A stretch of DNA of 64,000 nt. Source: Heptranchias perlo. Lineage: Eukaryota. The notes beneath the pieces were generated by a model. The model worked only from the letters and a program-made list of their open reading frames with translations, was not told where the DNA came from and searched no databases. The stretch spans positions 94,054,001 to 94,118,000 of the forward strand of contig NC_090327.1 in NCBI RefSeq assembly GCF_035084215.1, given 5' to 3'. Of the stretch, positions 1-57,261 are shown piece after piece (within the stretch, counting starts at the first letter, position 1; each line of letters begins with the position of its first letter). A program made the position numbers and the translations under genes.

Positions 1-46
1 ACCAGGCTTTTTTAAAAAAGAAACATGAAAAGAAGCCAAATTTTTA

Positions 47-108
47 GGTTCTGACAAAGGGTCGCAAGTCCTGAAACGCTAACCCGCCAGCATTTTCTGT
101 TTTTATAA
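47..108 (+). mobile_element. Degenerate PLE 3' remnant (family B) with decayed hammerhead
   Basis: gttCTGACAAagggtcgcaagtcctGAAACgctaac followed by ccagcattttctgttttta, the same tail as the 8258 and 22914 elements. Confidence 0.55.
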
Positions 109-4648: not shown

Positions 4649-5767
4649 TTTAACACAAAGTACTGCATTACTCTTGAAAATATTCACAGCCTTTCAGGTC
4701 ATCTGGAAATCCTGTAGTTTTAACGTAATGAAAAATACACCGTGATCATTGTAGAAGTTCCCTTATTCTTTGCCACGGTCTAGGAACTGGAATGCAAGCA
4801 ATACTGCAGATTGCCAAAGCCATGTTCTGTTGCAATGAACGTTCACTGTGACTACCCTTACTGTAAATCATCCCTTATTGTGTGATTTTTTTTTTGAAAA
4901 CATTTGAACACACATGTGAAAAAAGTCTTGTTATGAAGTAATAGAGTATGAAGGACAAATTTTGGTATTTAAATGGAAACCATTTTCTGAAGTGGTCACG
5001 GGGAAAAGAAAGCAACAAAGACTGAATCTCAACTCCAAGACTCATTTTACATAGCAATGCCTAGAACGAAACAGATCACAATGGGAAACATCTCAGCTAT
5101 GCAAAAGGTCATGGTCAGTCCATTGGTAACTAAGCAACATTTTCAGAAATGGTAGTGTAGGTATGCAGTAATCCTGGCAAAGGCATACAGAGGAACGGGC
5201 AATACCTATGGCTTGGTTCACAATATCACAACAATTTTAAAAGGATATCAAAACTGAACTGTTATGTTAAGGTACTTTTCCACAAGTGCAAGGGGTGTGC
5301 CTGCATTACAAAAAGGAGTATAAAAGCAATAGACCATGATTTGAAATGGGGGAAATAAAATGCCATTAACATAGCTTGCAAACTATACATTAGAAAGTGA
5401 AAATATCTGCCTAGTCAGTAAGTCATCAACAGAATTGAACGGATCCTCAGGCTGTGCAAAGCAGATGATAAAGCAATTGTGGTCCCAGTTATTGGCATGG
5501 TGTTACAGAAAATGCACTCCAGTGTGCGACTTGGTGGAATTAGCTTTACCAGTCTCGAAACCTACTCAGACAGTTAACAACCTTAAAATACTAATTGTCT
5601 GCAGAAAACACTAAAGTCACATTTGCTATCAACCAAATGAACCTTTAAACAGGAATAAGTATATACTATAAGATCAATGATGATGTGGAGATGCCGGTGA
5701 TGGACTGGGGTTGACAATTGTAAACAATTTTACAACACCAAGTTATAGTCCAACGATTTTATTTGAA

Positions 5768-5808
5768 ATTTACAAGCTTTCGGAGGCTTCCTCCTTCCTC
5801 AGGTAAAT
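5768..5808 (-). ncRNA. Minimal type I hammerhead ribozyme (PLE family A)
   Basis: Minus strand: auuuac CUGAGGA a GGAGG aag CCUCC GAAAGCU U guaaau. 6-bp stem I, 5-bp stem II, palindromic AGCU stem III. Confidence 0.85.
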
Positions 5809-6077
5809 GTCAGGAACTCCTCGAAGCCTACGCATTTATAAATCACAGAACAATACATGGTGATTACAGATAGTCTTTGCAACTGCCCGTTGCCAAGGCA
5901 ATCACAGTGTTCAGACAGAGAGGTGTTACCTACAGAGCCCCGGAATATACAGTCAAAAAAACCCCAAACAAACAGAAAAAAAAACAGAGAGAGAGAGGCA
6001 GAAACATCCGGAAGGCAGAGAAAGCCAGCAAATGACCCGTTATATTAAAAACAGATAGCTTTTGTTCGCTGGTGGGG

Positions 6078-6272
6078 TTACGTGTAGCGTGACATGAACC
6101 CAAGATTCTGGTTGAGGCCGTCCTCATGGGTGCGGAACTTGGCTATCAATTTCTGCTCGACGATTTTGCGTTGTCGTGTGTCTCGAAGGCCGCCTTGGAG
6201 TACGCTTACCCGAAGGTCGGTGGCTGAATGTCCCTGACTGCTGAAGTGTTCCCCGACTGGGAGGGAACCCTC
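6078..6272 (-). pseudogene. C-terminal fragment of PLE GIY-YIG endonuclease
   Basis: SLPVGEHFSSQGHSATDLRVSVLQGG...EQKLIAKFRTHEDGLNQNLG*; the HF..H..D...E...I...T...GLN pattern of PLE GIY-YIG domains. Confidence 0.85.
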
Positions 6273-6461
6273 CTGCCTCTCTCTCTCTCTTTTTTTTTCT
6301 GTTTGTTTTTTTTTTGACTGTATATTCGGGGGCTCTGTAGGTAACACCTCTCTGTCTGAACACTGTGATTGCCTTGGCAACGGGCAGTTGCAAAGACTAT
6401 CTGTAATCACCATGTATTGTTCTGTGATTTATAAATACGTAGGCTTCAAGGAGTTCCTGAC

Positions 6462-6502
6462 ATTTACCTGAGGAAGGAGGAAGCCTCCGAAAGCTTGTAA
6501 AT
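6462..6502 (+). ncRNA. Minimal type I hammerhead ribozyme (inverted copy, family A)
   Basis: atttac CTGAGGA a GGAGG aag CCTCC GAAAGCT T gtaaat. Confidence 0.85.
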
Positions 6503-8257
6503 TTCAAATAAAATCGTTGGACTATAACTTGGTGTTGTAAAATTGTTTACAATTATAAGATCAATGAATTTAGAGTATGTTACTGGGAGGATCAGTTTGG
6601 GTACAAAAGTGACTTTCATTAGCAAAACAGCCATTCATCATAGTTGATTACAGTACAATAAAACAACACACCCTTTTCTAATCCACAAAAGCTAACACAC
6701 CACCAATAAAAGCATAGTTAAACTACATTTGCCATACGTTTTCCCTGCATCAGGATATGACACTCAGACATAAACTGGAATGGTGTATTCAAATTCTGCA
6801 GCATGATCTAAATTAGAATTGCGGTCAGAGTGGATACTGTATGCTTTTATCTGTTCTTGAATTATCTATTATATTTGTTGGAAGACTTTTAATTTCAATT
6901 AAACTGCAATCAGCAAATGTTCTGAATAAAGGCTGATTTCTGCAGAGCAAAAGCTTAAATCCAGAGTATGACAGCTTAAACGGATAACAAAAAAGATTGG
7001 TGTTGCTGAATCCCTAGTTGTGAAAAAAATATACTGGCAGATCATTAATCCCTTCCTTCAAACTGCAACTAATATGATTTAGCCATCGAGATACTGTATG
7101 TGCTGACGTCAATACAAACATGTACCAGTGGCTCTACCGACATTTGTGTTTTCACCTTTCGCTGACTGATGATCATAGACAGTATATTAACCTGTTGTTG
7201 ACTGATGATCACTAGTTAACAGCAATAGAAATAAATAGCATGTGTATTGAAATTGCTTTAACAAAGACAGTTGAGTGAATTTAAAATTGCTCCAGTGTTA
7301 AAACTGATTGATGGAAGCTCTAAATCTATGCTTCCTACATAAATACTTAGACTGGAGGGATCTGCAGTTCATAAGAGTAAAAATGCTGCAGCCTCTGGAC
7401 GGTTATCCTGACTGCTTGCACCAGAATTCTTGGTGGAGAAACATGCACAAGAATTTAAAGCTTTTGACTGATATTTTAATGGGAGTTGGAACATCCACAG
7501 GAATTAATTCTTTCAGAGGTCACTCCAATTCCCAGCCCACTGTAAACCCACCTGATGCTAGAAAGGATGCTCTGAATGATATACTGTACAGATAAATCTG
7601 GCTGTAGATATTTTACATCTAGCTTATCACAGATTTCTAAATAGGATATTATTTATTCATGCACTTGTCTCTGAACATTGAGATCAGCTTGACAACATAA
7701 ACCAATGACAAAGTAAACAGTAGCTATTGGGCTGCCACTTCACACAGAGAAGCCATCAGTTACTTGTCAAGATTTAAATGAAAAGGCTATAAAGGATTCT
7801 GTAAAACTGTACTGAATGATGAGCAGATAATCAATCAGGGTTAACTTCAGTATAAAGCAACAAGTTTATTTAACAAATGATTGCAGCAGGATTGATATCA
7901 ATTTAAGAATTATATTTATTTTAAAGAAATGATTCCCATACAGCAGGCATGTTAAAAAAAAATCTGCCTGATGATCTAGTTATTTTTTTAGGATTCTTCT
8001 AAAAGGTTAGATTTCAATAAAAGCACCACAGACTATATTCCTTTTTTCCAGTTTTCTTGAGTTCTGGAACCATACATGTGGATTCTGAACTGTGTGTTAC
8101 TTCCCTGGTGTCAGGATAAGGGGCAACAGTGCAGGTACGTAGCTCTTGTGGGGGGGGGGGGGGCGGGGAAAGAGGGAGAAAGAGACAAAATCAGCTGGAA
8201 GCCATTGTTCATTGCAAAGAGAAACAGGATTCAGGTTCCAAAATAGTTCCAGGATTT

Positions 8258-8464
8258 TGTTCCTCCCCTCCCTCCCCCCCTTGTACTTGCTCTGTACTTG
8301 CTTAAAAACTTTAACTCTAACATCTTCCAGTTCTGACGAAAGGTCTTCGACCTGAAACGTTAACTCTGTGTCTTTCTCCACAGATGCTGCCTCACTTGCT
8401 GAGCTTTTCCAGCATTTTCTGCTTTTATTTCAGATTTCCAGCATCCGCAGTATTTTGCTTTTGA
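8258..8464 (+). mobile_element. PLE 3'-end / pLTR fragment (family B)
   Basis: 10-bp TSD tccaggattt (8248-8257 / 8465-8474); contains an HHR and the tail ttcagatttccagcatccgcagtattttgctttt. Confidence 0.85.
8329..8365 (+). ncRNA. Minimal type I hammerhead ribozyme (PLE family B)
   Basis: agtt CTGACGA a AGGTC ttc GACCT GAAACGT T aact. 4-bp stem I, 5-bp stem II, palindromic ACGU stem III. Confidence 0.8.
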
Positions 8465-18470: not shown

Positions 18471-18892
18471 ATTCTGAGTGTTTCCTTTTACCAACTGTGG
18501 CTACAATGTTGTAAGTGTCCCTCACCTACATTAAACACCCAGTATTAGTCAGTCCATACCATGGACCTGCTATCTTTCACTACATAACCCTTATGAGGTC
18601 ACTTTCCACAGGCTATACCTACGCTGCATACATCTACAGAAAGCGCCACGTGGATTTTTGCTTGGACCAGGAATTAGTGGGCTGCTTATAAATAGATTGT
18701 TTAGTAATGAAGTAGTTAATGAAGGTTCAACGTACTGCATCATAAAACATCATACACAGTGGTACCAATAATGTATATATCATGAGAGTGAAAGTGGCTG
18801 CAGGCAATCAGTTAATAATAATTCCAGATGCTATGCTTTGCATTGAAGCAGAACATAGCTTTCATTCCATGCTAAATGCTTATTGAGCTCAA

Positions 18893-20493
18893 AGAGAAAA
18901 ATATATGGTTTTAGCAGGCCTAAAAATGGATAAATCCCCAGGCCCGGACGAAATATATCCCAGGCTACTGTGTGAGGCAAAGGAGGAGATTGCGGGGGCT
19001 CTGACACATATATTCAGAACCTCTCTGGCCACAGGGGATGTGCCAGAGGACTGGAGAACCGCTAATGTAATACCATTATTCAAGAAGGGGAGTAGGGAAA
19101 AACCGGGGAACTACAGGCCAGTGAGCCTAACATCAGTGGTAGGAAAATTATTGGAAAAAATTCTGAAGGACAAAATTAGTCTCCACTTGGAGAAGCAAGG
19201 ATTAATCAGGGATAGTCAACATGGCTTTGTCAAGGGAAGATCATGTCTGACTAATTTGATTGAATTTTTTGAGGGGGTGACTAGGCGTGTGGATGAGGGT
19301 AACGCAGTGGATGTGGTATACATGGATTTCAGTAAGGCCTTCGATAAAGTCCCCCACAGGAGACTGGTCAAGAAGGTACGAGCCCATGGAATCCAGGGTG
19401 CCTTGGCACTTTGGATACAAAACTGGCTTAGTGGCAGAAGGCAGAGGGTGATGGTCGAAGGTTGTTTTTGTGACTGCAAGCCTGTGGCCAGTGGGGTACC
19501 ACAGGGATCGGTGCTGGGTCCCTTGCTGTTTGTGGTCTACATTAATGACTTGGATATGAATGTAAAAGGTATGATCAGTAAGTTCGCTGATGATACAAAA
19601 ATTGGTAGGGTGGTAAATAGCGAGGAGGATAGCCTCAGTCTGCAGGACGATATAGATGGGTTGGTCAGATGGGCGGAACAGTGGCAAATGGAATTTAACC
19701 CGGAAAAGTGCGAGGTGATGCACTTTGGAGGGACTAACAAGGCAAGGGAATACACAATGAATGGGAGGACCCTAGGCAAGACAGAGGGTCAGAGGGATCT
19801 TGGTGTGCAAGTTCACAGATCCCTGAAGGCGGCGGAACAGGTAGATAAGGTGGTAAAGAAGGCATATGGGATACTTGCCTTTATTAGCCGAGGCATAGAA
19901 TATAAGAGCAAGGAGGTTATGATGGAGCTGTATAAAACACTGGTTAGGCCACAGCTGGAGTACTGTGTGCAGTTCTGGTCGCCACACTACAGGAAGGATG
20001 TGATCGCTTTGGAGAGGGTGCAGAGGAGATTCACCAGGATGTTACCAGGGCTGGAGCGCTTCAGCTATGAAGAGAGACTGGGAAGATTGGGTTTGTTTTC
20101 CTTGGAGCAGAGGAGGCTGAGGGGGGACATGATTGAGGTGTACAAAATTATGAGGGGCACAGATAGGATGGATACTGAGGAGCTTTTTCCCTTCGTTGAG
20201 GGTTCTATAACAAGGGGACATAGATTCAAGGTAAAAGGCGGGAGGTTTAGAGGGGATTTGAGAAATAACTTTTTCACCCAGAGGGTGGTTGGAGTCTGGA
20301 ACTCACTGCCTGAAAGGGTTGTGGAGGCAGGAACCCTCAACATTCAAGAAGCATTTGGATGAGCACTTGAAATGCCATAGCATACAAGGCTACGGACCAA
20401 ATGCTGGAATATGGGATTAGAGTAGACAGGGCTGATGGCCGGCGCGGACACGATGGGCCGAAGGGCCTCTATCCGTGCTGTATGACTCTATAT
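18893..20493 (+). mobile_element. Young 5'-truncated CR1 LINE
   Basis: Uninterrupted RT ORF, then 3' UTR ending gggccgaagggcctctatccgtgctgtatgactctat. Confidence 0.96.
18905..20362 (+). CDS. CR1 ORF2 reverse transcriptase (endonuclease missing; transposon-derived)
   Basis: 485 aa with [56 protein letters not shown] and WNSLP; small frameshift in the last ~10 codons. Confidence 0.93.
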   Translation: MVLAGLKMDKSPGPDEIYPRLLCEAKEEIAGALTHIFRTSLATGDVPEDWRTANVIPLFKKGSREKPGNYRPVSLTSVVGKLLEKILKDKISLHLEKQGLIRDSQHGFVKGRSCLTNLIEFFEGVTRRVDEGNAVDVVYMDFSKAFDKVPHRRLVKKVRAHGIQGALALWIQNWLSGRRQRVMVEGCFCDCKPVASGVPQGSVLGPLLFVVYINDLDMNVKGMISKFADDTKIGRVVNSEEDSLSLQDDIDGLVRWAEQWQMEFNPEKCEVMHFGGTNKAREYTMNGRTLGKTEGQRDLGVQVHRSLKAAEQVDKVVKKAYGILAFISRGIEYKSKEVMMELYKTLVRPQLEYCVQFWSPHYRKDVIALERVQRRFTRMLPGLERFSYEERLGRLGLFSLEQRRLRGDMIEVYKIMRGTDRMDTEELFPFVEGSITRGHRFKVKGGRFRGDLRNNFFTQRVVGVWNSLPERVVEAGTLNIQEAFG

Positions 20494-21123: not shown

Positions 21124-22913
21124 CGAGAAAAATAAGAGATGACAAACTATCTTTTATTAAATTCTTTTAACTGAATAATGGCCTATAAGATCAGTAAGCA
21201 CAAACAAGGGCAAAATAACTTGGTTACAAATATATTTACTACCTTACTTTCCCATCTGGGGGGAAAGAACAAAGTTTTGAACATCATGCTGTAGCTCAAA
21301 AATTTTGCATCTTCCTGCACCAAGTCATTTATAAGTCATCTTTCATCCACTTCTTCAGGTTCTTTCCTCATACTAATTCTCAACCAAAATGGGTGGTCAA
21401 GTGTTGTACTTCCAGGCTACCTAAACAAGTCTGAACTCATTGCTGGTTGGTCAGTGAACATCCAGCAATAATTAATAATGAGAAACATACCCTCCAATTT
21501 TCCCTCAAAGTCTCCATTTGTCACCACCTCAATTGTGCAGATGCAGTGAAATTAAGAAATCTTGGGGAAGATAATTTGAGATTAGAGCCCAAGTAATTTT
21601 TAAATTACAAAAAAAGTGTACAATGACTAACGGAAGTGAACAGTAGTGTTGGCTCAGTGAAGAATCAGAGAACAGGGAATTGTGCCGTGTAAGTAATTTT
21701 TAAAATGCAAACTCAATTCATGGCACACAGGATTCTGGTGGCACTATTTGTGGATTAGCAGCAGTTTTCTAATAACTAGCAGCAGTTTTGTTAATACAGT
21801 GCACTGGAAATGATATGTGCTGTAAACGGATTTCCCCCAAAAAATTTAACTTTTCAGATAATTTAAAAGTAATTGTTTTTCTAAAAGAGGACACTGTAGA
21901 AGTTGTTTTCATTCAGATTCCAGGAGGTCGGCACTTGTGAGCCTGCTCCTGGAACCTACACTACTAAACCCAATCCCCTTACCGAGTCAGACTCATAGGG
22001 CTAGTCTGCCACTGGGATAAGAGAGTCAGTTTTAACAGTGTAAACATCTCATGAATTCCAAACCAAAAGCACCAATATAAAAGTTGCTTTATTTATGATG
22101 CTCTCACTGAACATTGCTTTGCTCCACTTCACCCTCTCCATGTTAACAGACAAATATTTTACATATTCTGTTCAACCACTTCTGCTTTACGTACTTTTCA
22201 TTCATAGAATGTCACCTGACAGTTTATCGCTTAGGCAGCAGTGGAATCAAATGCACACAGCAGCACTAAAAATGCAATTATGTTTCGGTAATCATCATAT
22301 CCCACCCCCTTACCATCAACTTTCCCTGCAAAGTTCATCCCATTACAATTCTGGTCTTAATTCAAACAAAAAAAAATTAAAAGAGAGTCACATCTTCCTG
22401 ACATGTATCCAGAATGCTCTCAGCACAACTGTGCATTGATAATTGCTGTTGTAAGGGAAGATATAGATTCCAACATCTGAGAGCACGTTCAAGGGCATTC
22501 ATACACACTGGGGGTGTTCGGATAATGTGCTGCTCACCCACCAAGTGTATCGCAGCCTTCTAACGTGATCCAAGCAATGGTTATTCTCAATATAAACACC
22601 ATTTAGAAGGAGTTTATATTTAAACCTACATTTAGGTTTCAGCTTCTGAAGATATTAAAAAATTCATTTTCTGCCATTTTGCAATTATTGCAGGTTTGCT
22701 AAACAATGAAAATTATCCAGTCTCAAAAGCTCTAATGTATCAACATCAGGTTGTGTTCAAACATTAAAAAGCTGCACAATAGCTTGAAATACTTGGAGGA
22801 GATAATTGTGGATGTCAATCAACTGCAACCATTGAGGACAATAATCATCTGTTTTGCTGGGAGTCAGCCTCTTCATACTCAAATCCACAGACCAAATCAG
22901 AAGGCAGCAGATC

Positions 22914-23376
22914 AAAAGCAAAATACTGCGGATGCTGGAAATCTGAAATAATGCAATTTACAACCTTTTGGACTCAACACTGATTTCAATAACTTCAGAT
23001 CATAACCACTGCTCCCATTTTTTTGGACAGTAAGTGCTGGTAATGGTTCTGCTGTTGCCATTTACAGCTCCTCTAGACCCATCTTTCATTTCTTTACTTG
23101 TCCCATTACCACCCTCCTTGCCGTACACCATCATCCCTTTTGTCATTTAAGCACTCCTGCCCTCCACCCTATCAGAGACTTTCCCTTTTGTTCTTTCCTC
23201 CCCTCCACTCCACCCTCCTTTTCCAGGCTCTGTACTTGCTTAAAAACTATTTAATCTTCAACTTCTTCCAGTTCTGACGAAAGGTCATCGACCTGAAACG
23301 TTAACTCTGTTTCTTTCTCCACAGATGCTGCCTAACTTGCTGAGTATTTCCAGCATTTTCTGTTTTTATTTCAGAT
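22914..23376 (+). mobile_element. 5'-truncated PLE (family B) with inverted tail
   Basis: TSD ggcagYagatc (22903-22913 / 23377-23387); 22914-22951 is the reverse complement of the family B tail; 22958-23005 encodes LQPFGLNTDFNNFRS* (GIY-YIG end); then pyrimidine-rich 3' UTR and HHR. Confidence 0.88.
23270..23306 (+). ncRNA. Minimal type I hammerhead ribozyme (family B)
   Basis: agtt CTGACGA a AGGTC atc GACCT GAAACGT T aact; differs from 8329 only in loop II. Confidence 0.8.
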
Positions 23377-31058: not shown

Positions 31059-31290
31059 TTTTTTAAAAGAAGAAAAATTGCAAATGCTGCAACTCAAATA
31101 AAAATTGAAAATGCTGGAAATACACAACAGACCAGTCAGCATTTGTAAAGAGAAAGAGCAGGTTATGACTTTTCACGCGTGTACCCTTCAGAACTAATGA
31201 AGGATATACACCTGAAATGTCATAAGCTGCCTTTTCTCTTTACAGATGCTGACTGACGTGCTGCGAATATCCAGCATTTTCTGTTTTTAC
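31059..31290. mobile_element. Old palindromic PLE-derived mini-element with decayed back-to-back hammerheads
   Basis: 11-bp TSD tgaattattct (31048-31058 / 31291-31301); arms gaaaatgctgga...gtcagcatttgtaaagagaaaag versus cttttctctttacagatgctgac...tccagcattttc; centre ctaatgaaggatatacacctgaaatgtc. Confidence 0.78.
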
Positions 31291-40225: not shown

Positions 40226-42546
40226 CGAGAGTTAAAATCTACCCTCCAGTCACACCTACACTCAGGAAAAGACAGGGCGGGGAGAAGAAATCAACCATCA
40301 TTCCCACTCCTGCACGTTATCTCCTGGCTTCTGTTGGAATGTGTGCTCGCGCAGTGTTAGGAGTGAGAGAAAGGAGAAAGGGAAAGGGCCTAACTGCAGT
40401 ACTCATACCCTCCATAATTGAATAGAATGTTAATTCTTTATTGGCACAGACATAAAAGAAAGACTAAGAATGATTTTCCAGAGGGCAGTGAGCATCGATG
40501 GAACAGTACACCATTAACAGTCGGTGATGTGGGGTAGGGAGAAGAGATGGGAGAGGGAAAATTAGAATTATGCATCAGTTGAAATTAAAGCATGCACTTT
40601 GAAGGGTATTTTTTTGCCTTTTTTTGGCTTGATTTTAGACCACACAGTCGCACAAGTATCAAAAGCAGAAGAATGTAAGCAAAAGGGGAAAGGTCAAATA
40701 AAGTTGTTGAAAAGCAGTCTGAGTAAACAGTGTGGACAGATGGTTTTAAAATGTGAAAGAAGGCAAAGGCAAAAACAAAAAACATCCAGAAACAATATGG
40801 ATATCCACAGACAGATCAACCAGCAAAAAAAGTTAAATAATACTACCTTGCAAATTACCACTAACTTTTTCCTCCTTCATTAAAGTAGTTTTGTAAATAA
40901 CAATTTCATAAATTTCAAACCATTAAAAAAAGGTTCTTTTGGGCATTTTGCATTAATCTGGTTTACCCGAGCCCAAATTAAAAATGGACTTGTCAAAAAA
41001 GCAATATACTGACTTGTGAAGAGAACAATAAATGAGACATTTTTCAAAAATGCAAGTGCTCTCCAAATAAAGTTAGATTCACCACTGAAGGAAAACGTTC
41101 TTTGAAATGTTAATTCTGTTACTATGTTAGCCATATTTGGACTTTCTAGATTTCGTTCCCCTCCTCCCCCCCAGTTTCAATATTTATTTTTTAGCAATTT
41201 CCTATATTCAGGGTTTCTTCAGTCTTTTTTTTGTTTAAAATGTCAAAATTGGATTAAGAAAAGCTTCACTCACACGTGATTGTTGCAATTATTTTATAGC
41301 GTTTTAATGACTGGAAGCATCTGACATACAATTCATCCAGAAAATGACATGAGAATTTTCTTTAAAAATCATCCTTACGGACATTTCATTTTTTTTCCCA
41401 AGAATTTTTGATATTTTATTTATATCAAAGTAAAACATTGGGGTTCTATTGGTTAATGCCAAAAACTGAGGGCCCTCTAGGGACTTTTCATAAGTCAACC
41501 AGGTGATGTAAAAAAAATTAAAAGCTAACTTTTTCCTACACAATTACTTTGAAGCAAAGCAGCTGGGAGCTTCCTTTCACTTTTTAAAAATGAACTTGTT
41601 GAGAAAACAATCACCTTGACCTTTTTTCAGTGCTAATGAAAACCACAGATTTCTGGGACAACGTCCAGTGGTATGCACTGCAAGGTAGATAGAGGAGGGG
41701 GCTACACTACCTTGGCCATGTTACATCAGCCACTTCACTACACTAATGAGACTTGCTGTTTACCACCAACAGTTTGCCATCAAATACAGTACTTTAATTT
41801 TCAAAGTAAACATCAGTACTGAAGTTAATATATTAACCGCCAGAACACTGTGTACAGGTCAAATTCTAGAGAGGCAGATAGGTTTTCTTTAAACCAATGA
41901 AGCTGTTGTGATAATTCCACGAAGCTCCCTTCCTCGCAGGCAGAAGATATAAAAGGTATGTTTAAGAAAAGAGCAAGCTGATTTCAAAACAATGGAATCT
42001 TGTCCTGCAAGTCTCAATTGGTTCATTTTCTAATCTTATGGAAAGGCACTGTTTAACCAAGGGAATCTGGAGACAATCAAAGGGTACTCAGCAAAAGATA
42101 TTGCTTTATGGATTAGTGAAGTAGGAAATATCATATAAAAGGGAGACTGCACCACTGTATAAGTTACATATTTCCCAGTTTGTAAGCCAGTAATAAAAAC
42201 TATTAAAAGGTACAAAAAGTATTGCAATGCAAGAAGGGGAGAGGTAGAGAAAACACCTTCCACGAAAACCACAAAAAGCCTCTAGACATTGTTCTGTGGT
42301 CAGAGAATGCATATTCCTCATTTATACCAAAGACAGCATCATGCAATAGTTGGAAATAGCGACAGCATTAGTTTCAGGGTGCATTTCACTTCCTTCTCAC
42401 AGAAAGGGTTCCTGTAACAGTGTGGGTCGCCCCATTTTTTCCCAAGGGAAGGGGAAAAAAAAGGGGAGGGGCAAAAATGCTTTGCATATGAAGCTTTCGG
42501 CAGGGAGAACAGACCCCATGAGTAGATGAAGCCAGCAGATGATTTT

Positions 42547-42650
42547 CTTCCAGTTCTGATGGAAGGTCATCGACCTGAAACGTTAACCCTCTTTCTCGCT
42601 CCACAGGTGCTGCTTGAACTGCTGAGTGTTTCCAGCATTTTCTGTTTTTG
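42547..42650 (+). mobile_element. PLE pLTR fragment (family B) with mutated hammerhead
   Basis: agtt CTGATGG a AGGTC atc GACCT GAAACGT T aac (A9 to G) plus family B tail; possible TSD atgatttt (42539-42546 / 42657-42664). Confidence 0.8.
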
Positions 42651-54390: not shown

Positions 54391-55824
54391 AGAGGCTTTC
54401 AAGCCAATTTCTAAAATATATACATCAGTTATTTAAAATGACTGTTGCAGTGACATCGGGAAAGGGCAGCCTAGCAGTGAGTCCTTTCAGGCTTCACTAA
54501 AATGGTCATCTTAAATCTTCAATGAGATGTCTGCAGGAGCTGCTGCTTAAACCCTGAAGACAACCACAGGGTAGTCCACATGCACGGACCATTTTGCTCT
54601 CTTAGCTGAAACTGGAACCGTAAGCTCTCAGGAAAAGCAGCTCAAAGGAAGTTTAATGTACATCAGAACTAAAAAGGAAAAAAATGTTTTGTGGAGTTCA
54701 TTGAAAGATTTGTATCTACACAGTGTAGTATTTTGACCAGACAATGCAAACTGAAGTATTGTGCTATTTTATGCTTAACCATTGAGGAATTCAGTGGAAT
54801 CAGTGGAAAAACAAAGGCAATTAATAAATTAAATCATATATCCCTACATCTTCCCCGTGCCACCGAAAAACCGTCCTTGATGATCAGGAAAGGATTAATA
54901 ATCCAATACATGGATAACCAGTTCAGTACCCAGATTCCCTTCATTCCCTTCGTAGACAACACAGGACAGACCAGGGAGTGATGTGGTGCATCCGATGGGT
55001 TTGTGCAACACAGACACTGAGCTTCCAAAGCTACATGTACAATAAAGACTAAGTCATACTAAGTAACCACTTAAACCGTTCATATCATTTTGGTGATAAT
55101 TCACATTGAGAGTTATAACATCCTTGTGTCCTCCACAACAACAGCAACTTGTATTTATGTAGCACCTTTAACATACTAAAATATCACGAAGCATTTCAGA
55201 GATGTGAAGGGAACTGGCTGATAACTGCTAACTATTCAAATGACTGCCTGTCAGCCAACAAAAGAGTGATTTCAAACAACTGGTGAGCTTTACGAACATA
55301 ACTAACTAATGAAACACTTGGTTTCATTCTCGGATCCTAAGGCAAGGCAATACAATAAAAATGTCATGGTGTGTTATTTGACAATGCAGGACATACAAAT
55401 CTTAGCTCCAATAATGAAGTTTTTTTTTTCAAAAGGAACCTTCAAACAAACTAATGTGACATAGTCAGTGGTGAGCATTGGTGAAATCGTGACTTTTTGG
55501 GCACTTGTTAACAAGCAGAGCTTCAAAGAGGTGAGCTTGTTAAACAAAATACTGTTACAAAAGACAGGCCATAATGGGTGCAGCCCAATGCAGACGTAGA
55601 CGACAATACTTGGGTTTTAAAGATCCACATATCTGTCTAGTGTTCCAAAAAGTGGGCAGAATTTTGGCAGTATATGGAAATTGTAATTATGAGGCAACTC
55701 TATGTTCCCATAATTGCTCTACCCTATTTCATGTTATGATGTGGAGATGCCGGTGATGGACTGGGGTTGACAATTGTAAACAATTTTACAACACCAAGTT
55801 ATAGTCCAGCAATTTTATTTTAAA

Positions 55825-55863
55825 TTCACAAGCTTTCGGAGGCTTCCTCCTTCATCAGGTGAA
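55825..55863 (-). ncRNA. Minimal type I hammerhead ribozyme (family A variant)
   Basis: Minus strand: uucac CUGAUGA a GGAGG aag CCUCC GAAAGCU U gugaa; 5-bp stem I with a compensatory change relative to 5768-5808. Confidence 0.85.
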
Positions 55864-55872
55864 CGATGTGAA

Positions 55873-55905
55873 ACCTGACGAAGGAGGAAGCCTCCGAAAG
55901 CTTGT
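55873..55905 (+). ncRNA. Hammerhead core with truncated stem I
   Basis: ac CTGACGA a GGAGG aag CCTCC GAAAGCT T gt; only 2 bp of stem I remain because the inversion breakpoint lies inside it. Confidence 0.6.
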
Positions 55906-57261
55906 GAATTTAAAATAAAATTGCTGGACTATAACTTGGTGTTGTAAAATTGTTTACTATTTCATGTTGGATAGTTTAAAGGATTTCTCTCCCCTTAATC
56001 CCACCCATTTACATCCTCATCCTGTAACTATTATCAGAACAACTCAGAAAGCAAGTGAACAATCATTTCAGAAACCAGTTAAGTGGAATTGCAAGTTGCT
56101 ATTCTGGTTTATGGACCATTAGTCAGAAATTAACTGGTCAATAGTTGCTGACAACACTCTTGCTTGTTGGTAAATTAACTATCCCTCTGAAGGGTCCATA
56201 TTTCATAATTTTCAAACCCAACCCCATCCCTCATGCTTATCAACTTCAATCACCTTTGCATTGCAAGAAACCCACTCCCCGTTTTTAAGTGGTGCGCCTG
56301 GATCTTGTACTCTTCAAGTAAATTTCTGTTGATTCACAAATGCCACAGGATAATTTCCTGAAAAGTTGCATATGACAGTTTCACAGGAATTAAGAGGAAA
56401 AAAAATCCTTTGATGGCAGTTAGCGTAAATGTAAACAAACAATCTCCAGGGTGGTATTAACTTGTATACTAGAATTCTATGCTGTGCAATAGTTCAGGTC
56501 AGACCAAAAAAAATCCTTGCAGAATAACTGGTCTTTTGATTAATAGCAATGACAATACTGGGACTGGGCAAACAGTTGCATTGCTACTTTTTAAAAAAAG
56601 TCAATAAAATGTCTTTTACTTTTGGTATTCCAAAAAGTATACATTTATGAGCTAACAATGCTGGACACAATGTCCTTTTAGGACATTCAATCAACCCCAA
56701 CTTGGTCTGTGATGTAAATTTGAAAGTTCAGGTGTTCATTGGCTGCTAAATGACACAAAGGATTTACTCTTAAAATACACAACCAAATCCTCTATAGGAA
56801 AATCTGTGTGTGGAGATTAGATTAGGATGAAGAGGGCTTCATGCAACTTCTTCACATAAAAGGAGTGATCAATACCAAGAGTGGACTTCAGGTACAATGG
56901 TGGAGGTGAAAATAATTTACAAAGCCATTCATTGCTGCGATGGAGGGGGGAGAACAACTATTGGGTCCTTCTGGATGAATGACTATGATGAGATGATTGG
57001 CCTTCATCATTTGTGTCTATTTTGTGATTTTATGAACTCTTGTAGAAAAAGAAAGTGCTATATGTTATTAAGCACCTTCCTTAATACCCATGAAATACAA
57101 TTCCAAAATCTGTATTTCACATAAGAAAACAACTCTCCAAGAACCTATACATAAACCCAATCACATTCTGCAGACAGTAATACCAGACACAATGGATAAT
57201 ATGGTATGGTCCAATTACAACACAGAGTGAAATGTGAAAGAATACTACATTGTGTAGTGAT

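What the first reader, a model, noticed from the sequence alone, without database searches (positions are those of the whole stretch)
5681..6553. Penelope-like element carrying two inverted, intact minimal hammerhead ribozymes
Seen: a TSD-bounded insertion with a GIY-YIG stub, ~285-bp inverted arms and, in each arm, a complete core (CUGAGGA-a-GGAGG/CCUCC-GAAA-GCU-U) closed by a 6-bp stem I. Known: PLE pseudo-LTRs encode minimal type I HHRs whose loopless palindromic stem III works as a dimer, and an extra A between A9 and G10.1 occurs in the natural CChMVd hammerhead. Inferred: a recently active ribozyme-bearing retroelement family with predicted cleavage after CUU, a non-optimal triplet.
Basis: partly seen in the sequence, partly recalled or inferred. 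Interest (0 to 1): 0.8.

Follow-up and report, generated by a model that had tools for sequence, protein, structure and literature searches.

The report
Shark Penelope-like retrotransposon with hammerhead ribozymes
This is a truncated, non-coding copy of a shark jumping gene of the Penelope type whose two mirror-image ends each carry the small self-cutting RNA motif already known from such elements, so it is mostly ordinary.

Summary
5681-6553 is a 5'-truncated Penelope-like element (PLE) on the minus strand: endonuclease C-terminus, 3' UTR, pseudo-LTR with a minimal type I hammerhead, and a 35-nt tail. An inverted pseudo-LTR (97% identical) sits in front of it, inside a 14-nt target-site duplication. 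The stub is 94% identical to an RT plus GIY-YIG protein of the shark Heptranchias perlo that has the Neptune/Nematis linker motif. A second copy (55736-55956) differs inside the ribozyme only at structure-neutral sites. A second hammerhead-bearing repeat family in the window covaries in all three stems. Every ribozyme trait (extra A, loopless palindromic stem III, CUU site, opposite-strand pair) is already published for PLEs. Corrections: the two ribozymes lie on opposite strands, so they cannot form a cis dimer; read-through RNA is predicted to be a ~280-bp duplex that masks them; and 'recently active' is not shown. One tentative new point: the 35 nt upstream of the ribozyme pair with it and beat the hammerhead fold by 6.5 kcal/mol in a local fold, a possible off-switch. 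Cleavage is untested. Verdict: new member of a known kind, low-to-modest interest.

The parts
5667..5680 (.). Left target-site duplication (A at 5680 may belong to the element end)
   Evidence: the second copy's homology extends to this A
5681..5715 (-). 35-nt 'tail' at the 3' end of the direct copy, absent from the inverted arm
   Evidence: same tail in the copy at 55736-55771; 30-40-nt tail described in PMC8557442 and PMC11167929
5716..6001 (-). Direct pseudo-LTR arm (simple-repeat tract, upstream region, ribozyme, downstream region)
5768..5808 (-). Minimal type I hammerhead of the direct copy; C3 5802, predicted cut after U17 5774, 93 nt from the 3' end
5810..5844 (-). Upstream segment complementary to the ribozyme (9+7+5-bp helices); candidate anti-ribozyme hairpin or relic inversion; tentative
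6002..6077 (-). 3' UTR between the stop codon and the repeated arm
   Evidence: P0002 and P0019 read through into it
6078..6272 (-). C-terminal 64 aa of the PLE GIY-YIG endonuclease plus stop; holds the HFSSQGH histidines and GLN but not the GIY-YIG motif
6273..6278 (+). Inversion junction; these bases start the inverted arm and, on the minus strand, read Arg-Gln as the parent protein does there (inferred microhomology of 2-6 nt)
6273..6553 (+). Inverted, tail-less pseudo-LTR arm
6426..6460 (+). Mirror copy of the upstream segment complementary to the ribozyme
6462..6502 (+). Minimal type I hammerhead of the inverted arm; C3 6468, predicted cut after U17 6496
6554..6567 (.). Right target-site duplication
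55736..55956 (-). Second, shorter insertion of the same family, same layout (tail + direct arm, inverted arm), 12-nt TSD at 55724-55735 / 55957-55968; ribozymes at 55824-55864 (-) and 55869-55909 (+, stem I cut short by the junction)

Best explanation
A dead, 5'-truncated insertion of a shark-wide, probably Neptune-clade, Penelope-like retrotransposon. Inferred from PLE biology: the parent RT/GIY-YIG protein nicked AT-rich DNA, primed reverse transcription at the tail, copied about 590 nt back into the endonuclease gene, then switched at a short microhomology to add an inverted, tail-less copy of the pseudo-LTR; staggered second-strand nicking gave the 13-14-nt TSD. The hammerhead is a standard part of the family's pseudo-LTR. 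It has been kept under selection in the transposing lineage and most likely cleaves slowly after U17, as a dimer through the AGCU palindrome in tandem-copy transcripts or with help from the element's protein. The RNA that was reverse transcribed had not been cleaved (or had been re-ligated), since every arm reads through the cut site. At this locus the two ribozymes are passengers: opposite strands, and masked in a long duplex if the locus is read through. Shown: anatomy, homology, covariation, predicted folds. Inferred: insertion steps, clade, cleavage, dimer or protein dependence.
For: TSD, inverted arm and one-sided tail in two independent copies match the layout described in PMC8557442 and PMC3846280. 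Stub is 94% identical to P0003, which has DKG, YIDD, CX4CxxC linker, VVYLIRCRKGCPGAWYIG, HFSSQGH and GLN. Named relatives of the stub at 73-97% identity in Heptranchias, Scyliorhinus, Mustelus and Chiloscyllium; an unnamed 881-aa relative at 65% to P0003. A catshark gene model (P0017) translates through EN, ribozyme and tail and loses similarity at the same tail end. Between the two direct arms, 6 of 127 positions differ; the 3 inside the ribozyme are N7 and both partners of one stem I pair (U-A to C-G); rough post hoc chance 0.007. Across both window families stems II and III are 100% paired, with two-sided changes in 4 of 5 and 1 of 2 pairs; covariation 0.76, 0/500 shuffles, slid controls <=0.16. 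Published PLE hammerheads cleave weakly as dimers (PMC4209133) or only with protein, with uncleaved RNA as the template (PMC11167929).
Against: No cleavage data. Only two insertions (four arms) of this family were available, and the ribozyme is not more conserved overall than the downstream flank (3 differences each). The two-sided changes mostly reflect one split between two families, not many events; 'pairs with change on both sides' was reached by 72/500 shuffles and 'further pair types' by 459/500. The modelled active dimer (-19.5 kcal/mol) is less stable than two monomers (-20.4), than a dimer with A14-U17 mispaired (-22.1) and than the unconstrained dimer (-28.3). Clade rests on one motif shared by Neptune and Nematis; no tree was built.
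Confidence: 0.85

Rival explanations
1. The motif is a conserved structural or protein-binding element (or a very slow relic) whose cleavage plays no part in transposition.
For: All arms span the cut site uncleaved. In the anole Poseidon element, ribozyme mutants insert normally in vitro and no RNA-seq reads start or end at the cut site (PMC11167929). The active dimer is not favoured in the energy model. CUU is not one of the two fastest triplets (PMC3138052 passages name GUC and GUA as fastest).
Against: Catalytic positions C3, U4, G5, A6, G8, G12, A13, A14, A15.1 and U16.1 are invariant across two unrelated families in the window while stems are replaced, which is what selection for catalysis predicts.
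Confidence: 0.25
2. The family's pseudo-LTR carries a built-in antisense off-switch: the 35 nt upstream pair with the ribozyme and hold it inactive until a protein, a partner copy or a downstream start site releases it. It may descend from an old head-to-head inversion centred on the ribozyme.
For: Three in-register helices (9, 7, 5 bp) beat the hammerhead fold by 6.5 kcal/mol. With 60 nt of upstream context stem II probability is 0.003 and 0.011; 0/300 and 1/300 upstream shuffles go as low. Local alignment to the reverse complement is matched by 16/2000 shuffles, and a 95-nt extension towards the tail by 40/2000. The copy at 55736-55956 has its inversion junction right at the ribozyme's 5' edge.
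Against: Found post hoc. One subfamily only: the second copy is truncated before this segment, so no covariation test was possible. Absent in the two family B copies tested. Whole-stretch fold z is only -1.85, 9/200. In the full 592-nt direct copy the hammerhead stems are predicted again (stem II 0.85), so the result depends on context.
Confidence: 0.15
3. The inverted pair is a host-domesticated bidirectional ribozyme or double-stranded RNA module at this locus.
For: Both cores and the TSD are intact; read-through RNA would form a ~280-bp duplex (MFE about -600 kcal/mol).
Against: The same layout recurs in another copy and in a decayed family B insertion 25-50 kb away and is routine for PLEs. 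Intactness is expected at about 1% divergence. No transcript or orthologue data.
Confidence: 0.03

Closest known systems
Minimal hammerheads (min-HHR) of metazoan PLE pseudo-LTRs (Cervera and de la Pena 2014, PMC4209133)
   Same: Type I, core CUGANGA plus one extra nucleotide, G10.1-C11.1, loopless palindromic 15.2-16.2, NUH site, U-rich 5' and AU-rich 3' flanks. The same GAAAGCUU end is listed for the turtle Chrysemys and the rotifer Philodina, CUGAGGAA for coelacanth family 1. Opposite-strand pairs 100-700 bp apart are described in schistosomes.
   Different: No cartilaginous fish among the 56 listed motifs; the sequence of stems I and II is family-specific; no upstream competing hairpin is mentioned in the parts read.
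Neptune clade PLEs (C-terminal GIY-YIG, CX2-5CxxC linker, CCHH motif; as defined in PMC8557442)
   Same: Parent protein P0003 has RT, then CX4CxxC, then GIY-YIG with two internal Cys and two downstream His; inverted 5'-truncated arm, tail, variable TSD.
   Different: The linker motif is shared with Nematis; no phylogenetic placement was made. The window holds only the last 64 aa.
Poseidon of Anolis carolinensis (PAc; PMC11167929)
   Same: Minimal hammerhead near the 3' end, 30-40-nt optional tail, AT-rich target, uncleaved template.
   Different: Poseidon clade lacks the linker Zn-finger. In PAc the ORF starts inside the ribozyme; here there is no ATG between ribozyme and 3' end, so the cut would fall in untranslated RNA.
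Non-LTR retrozymes (tandem hammerhead repeats; bioRxiv 10.64898/2026.07.22.740005)
   Same: Type I hammerhead, PLE-derived, reported in one chondrichthyan genome.
   Different: Retrozymes are head-to-tail non-coding tandems; this is a single inverted insertion with endonuclease sequence and a TSD.

Membership tests
EN+ Penelope-like elements | Single ORF with RT followed by C-terminal GIY-YIG endonuclease | tested here: met
   Met in the parent, not in this copy: the stub is 59/63 identical to the C-terminus of P0003, which has Pfam RVT_1 and the GIY-YIG motif
EN+ Penelope-like elements | CCHH motif in the endonuclease | tested here: met
   Two Cys between GIY and YIG in P0003; both His present in the stub
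EN+ Penelope-like elements | Pseudo-LTR with inverted 5'-truncated copy and one-sided 30-40-nt tail | tested here: met
   35-36-nt tail and inverted arm in both copies
EN+ Penelope-like elements | Variable-length target-site duplication | tested here: met
   14 nt and 12 nt
EN+ Penelope-like elements | Partial-tandem full-length copy in the same genome | not testable with these tools
   No eukaryotic genome collection; none in the window
Neptune clade | CX2-5CxxC linker between RT and EN | tested here: met
   CHSNLCKTC at 505 of P0003 and in 6 of 6 other relatives checked; also found in Nematis
Neptune clade | RT phylogeny grouping with named Neptune elements | not tested
   No named reference sequences were available
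Penelope/Poseidon clade | Absence of the linker Zn-finger | tested here: not met
   Linker present
PLE minimal type I hammerhead | Conserved core CUGANGA / GAAA / UH | tested here: met
   All four family A arms
PLE minimal type I hammerhead | Extra nucleotide between A9 and 10.1; G10.1-C11.1; palindromic 15.2-16.2 | tested here: met
   Extra A, G-C, AGCU
PLE minimal type I hammerhead | Stems supported by covariation | tested here: met
   One compensatory pair within the family; stems II and III across two families; few independent events
PLE minimal type I hammerhead | Self-cleavage as dimer or with protein | not testable with these tools
   Needs an assay; the energy model does not favour the active dimer
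Rfam hammerhead families | Score above gathering threshold | tested here: not met
   No hammerhead hit
Non-LTR retrozymes | At least two consecutive head-to-tail units each with a hammerhead | tested here: not met
   Arms are inverted, on opposite strands

The most novel reading that the evidence does not exclude
This shark PLE subfamily has fixed an old ribozyme-centred inversion in its pseudo-LTR and uses it as an antisense off-switch. The hammerhead stays inactive in the template RNA and fires only when the upstream strand is displaced or left out. Inversion junctions that fall at the ribozyme's 5' edge (copy 55736-55956, family B at 31059-31290) would show the ribozyme fold steering the template switch. 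This would explain why PLE hammerheads are conserved yet weak, and why copies carry uncleaved RNA.
Probability: 0.12. Interest if true: 0.6.

Novelty: new member of a known kind. Interest (0 to 1): 0.25.

Why it matters
As found, it extends a known rule (PLE pseudo-LTRs carry minimal hammerheads) to a shark family, probably of the Neptune clade. I found no paper describing this family's ribozyme, but Repbase, Dfam, Lunse et al. and the supplements of the 2026 retrozyme preprint could not be seen. Two things have modest value. At least seven hammerhead-bearing PLE insertions lie in this 64-kb window, so shark genomes could supply many copies for testing selection on these ribozymes. The family also offers a Neptune-type counterpart, with the ribozyme outside the ORF, to the one PLE studied in vitro. 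If the upstream off-switch is real it would bear on the open question of what PLE hammerheads do.

Tried and rejected
Rfam: no hammerhead hit; Rfam gives no support for the motif. Pfam on the stub: only MbeB_N at E 0.11, rejected as chance. Bacterial and archaeal genomes: 0 exact matches to a 23-nt ribozyme stretch, so no extra copies. Sigma-70 promoter and terminator scan: at shuffle level and irrelevant to a eukaryote. Covariance model from the 7 window motifs: returns its 7 training sequences by construction, plus 3 weak hits (E 0.22-0.69); only the one at 45-86 is backed by separate family B similarity, and the model missed the decayed pair at 31059-31290. Cis dimer between the two arms: rejected (opposite strands). 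Reading covariation from the catshark protein P0017: third codon positions are ambiguous; compatible with the fold, with G12 lost in that copy, but not a test. Locating the ORF start relative to the tail: N-terminal relatives were found (P0023, P0138) but none shows upstream sequence, so the idea that the element ends on the AT of the start codon is untested. Literature search was swamped by hammerhead-shark papers (843 hits, 25 listed, none with 'ribozyme') and is weak evidence of absence. Cluster membership of the parent proteins and the Lunse et al. paper stayed unseen; viral and metagenome contig collections stayed unchecked.
Full report
1. Observation. A 14-nt direct repeat, TATAAGATCAATGA, lies at 5667-5680 and 6554-6567 (chance about 8e-7 with +/-5 nt slack). 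Inverted arms at 5716-6001 and 6273-6554 are 97.2% identical. Each arm has the same 41-nt hammerhead motif: 6-bp stem I, CUGAGGA, an extra A, stem II GGAGG/CCUCC, GAAA, palindromic AGCU, U17. On + C3 is 6468 and U17 6496; on - they are 5802 and 5774. A descriptor scan of the window gave 5 hits, all in repeat copies, against a mean of 0.01 in 100 shuffles and none with a palindromic stem III. The isolated motif folds into stems I and II (z -1.9, modest). Rfam gives no hammerhead hit.

2. Anatomy. The element reads on the minus strand. From 6272 down come the last 64 codons of an endonuclease, a stop at 6080-6078, a 3' UTR, the repeated arm with the ribozyme 276 nt after the stop, and a 35-nt tail ending at 5681, 93 nt after the predicted cut. 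The plus-strand arm 6273-6553 is an inverted copy without the tail. At the junction the first bases of the inverted arm read Arg-Gln on the minus strand, as the parent protein does there; I infer a 2-6-nt microhomology. Passages of PMC8557442 and PMC3846280 describe this layout (inverted 5'-truncated copy, one-sided 30-40-bp tail, variable TSD) as typical of PLEs.

3. Parent. The stub finds 19 proteins among 35 candidates, the named ones all from sharks. The best RT-bearing hit, P0003 of Heptranchias perlo (643 aa, cluster of 54), is 59/63 identical. It carries DKG, YIDD, a CX4CxxC linker, a GIY-YIG motif with two inner cysteines, HFSSQGH and GLN, and Pfam RVT_1. The linker was present in all 7 proteins checked. 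By PMC8557442 it marks Neptune and Nematis and is absent from Penelope/Poseidon. I call the family probably Neptune because Neptune is the linker-bearing clade reported in vertebrates; no tree was built. A search with P0003 gave 3053 hits among 8000 scored, with shark proteins on top and an unnamed 881-aa full-length relative at 65%. A Mustelus protein supplies the N-terminus. A catshark gene model, P0017, translates through EN, ribozyme and tail and loses similarity at the same tail end, so the arrangement is shared across shark orders. The host is evidently a shark.

4. Other copies. A second insertion of the family lies at 55736-55956 with a 12-nt TSD, the same tail and its own inverted arm. 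The two direct arms differ at 6 of 127 positions. Three lie in the ribozyme: N7, and both partners of one stem I pair (U-A to C-G). A rough post hoc chance for that pattern is 0.007. N7 is G, G, U and C in the four arms. Against this, the ribozyme has as many differences as the longer downstream flank, so it is not more conserved overall, and n is two insertions. A second hammerhead-bearing repeat family (B; stem III ACGU) has copies at about 45-106, 8258-8464, 22910-23376, 31059-31290 and 42545-42649; I class it as a PLE from its ribozyme, TSDs and inverted layout only, with no protein evidence. On seven motifs of both families (the decayed ones at 45-86 and 31059-31290 left out), stems II and III are 100% paired and stem I 69%; covariation score 0.76, 0/500 shuffles, slid controls at most 0.16. 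Two other measures were not significant (72/500, 459/500), and most changes reflect one split between families.

5. How it works. Inferred from PLE biology: the parent protein nicks AT-rich DNA, primes at the tail, copies back into the EN gene and switches template to lay down the inverted arm. In the anole Poseidon system the tail lies between two internal RT start sites, the ribozyme cleaves only with protein, ribozyme mutants still insert, and uncleaved RNA is the main template (PMC11167929, parts 1-2 of 4 read). That fits here: all four arms read through the cut site. Selection on the core and stems points to real, probably slow, cleavage in the transposing lineage, as a dimer in tandem transcripts or protein-assisted (PMC4209133; review passages PMC6765202). 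The energy model gives the dimer no help: active dimer -19.5, two monomers -20.4, A14-U17 mispaired dimer -22.1, unconstrained dimer -28.3 kcal/mol. At this locus the two ribozymes cannot pair in cis. A transcript from either side makes the antisense arm first, and stem probabilities are 0.000 at all six lengths tested. Only a transcript starting inside the element could fold the ribozyme, with stem II probabilities from 0.04 to 0.99 over eight start points.

6. An unplanned observation. That spread led me to the 35 nt upstream of the ribozyme (5810-5844; mirror 6426-6460). They pair with it in three helices of 9, 7 and 5 bp and beat the hammerhead fold by 6.5 kcal/mol. 0/300 and 1/300 upstream shuffles suppress stem II as strongly. 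Alignment to the reverse complement is matched by 16/2000 shuffles, and a 95-nt extension by 40/2000. Against: it is post hoc, whole-stretch z is -1.85, it is absent in both family B copies tested, it cannot be checked in the second copy, and the full 592-nt direct copy is predicted to form the hammerhead stems (0.85). It may be an off-switch, a relic inversion (palindromes at pLTR 5' ends are noted in PMC3846280) or chance.

7. Age. Three substitutions in 246 nt between arms give about 9 million generations at 7e-10 per generation (0.9-127 million across intervals; PMC10587355 passages). One is a CpG transition, and RT errors or two template RNAs would shorten the estimate. An open stub and a 54-member protein cluster suggest a family young in sequence terms; present activity is not shown.

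8. Comparison with what is known. PMC4209133 (main text parts 1-3 of 4, supplement file 2 parts 1-2 of 3; file 1 not available) gives the consensus CUGANGAH-G...C-GAAAN-palindrome-NUH and reports such motifs in Xena, Poseidon and Neptune PLEs of fishes and as opposite-strand pairs 100-700 bp apart. By my count of its 56 listed motifs, 24 have U17, 3 cut after CUU, 2 end GAAAGCUU and 2 have CUGAGGA; none is from a cartilaginous fish. The 2026 retrozyme preprint (part 1 of 5 and passages; supplements closed) reports hammerhead tandems and surveys PLEs in a panel that includes one chondrichthyan, and its supplements could hold this motif. Lunse et al. was seen only as a reference and through a review. 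Also read as passages: PMC6155905, PMC4350176, PMC3138052, PMC12602865, PMC2377424. Searches listed no paper on this family's ribozyme; Repbase and Dfam could not be checked and may well hold the repeat.

9. Verdict. A real, well-formed but ordinary PLE insertion with standard minimal hammerheads; a new member of a known kind. Interest 0.25. The off-switch reading has probability about 0.12 and would merit about 0.6.

Noticed in passing
window 45-106, 8258-8464, 22910-23376, 31059-31290, 42545-42649: A second hammerhead-bearing repeat family (core CUGACGA, stem II AGGUC/GACCU, stem III ACGU), with TSDs of 10 nt (8248/8465) and 11 nt (31048/31291) and inverted layouts; intact cores at 8333 and 23274, decayed elsewhere. 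No protein evidence for its class.
   Followed up: partly
window 55864-55874 and about 31185-31195: In the short family A copy both arms are cut off within 5 nt of C3, and the junction holds about 10 nt of filler with a second GTGAA (the stem I sequence). The family B inversion at 31.2 kb also turns at the ribozyme core. Possible clustering of inversion points at the ribozyme's 5' edge; too few cases to test.
   Followed up: partly
window 5680-5685 (minus strand) and 55736-55741: Both copies end in CATCAT and there is no ATG between ribozyme and end; the last AT could be the start of the ORF's ATG in a tandem parent. Untested.
   Followed up: partly
proteins P0002, P0011, P0016, P0017, P0019, P0038: Several shark gene models (XRCC5, PPP1R12A-like, FAM210B, septin 5a, FAM204A, epn2 isoforms) are chimeric with this PLE's protein; three join the endonuclease at the same GCP(E/R)AWY point, suggesting a cryptic splice acceptor or an annotation artefact.
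   Followed up: no
window 18887-20362 (+): An uninterrupted 491-aa LINE-type reverse transcriptase frame (Pfam RVT_1, E 5e-35), with more decayed relatives at about 27.2-28.7 kb and 49.5-50 kb.
   Followed up: no
window 5950-6001 and 6273-6320: A pyrimidine-rich simple-repeat tract starts the repeated arm; it holds the only indel between the arms and sits next to the inversion junction.
   Followed up: no
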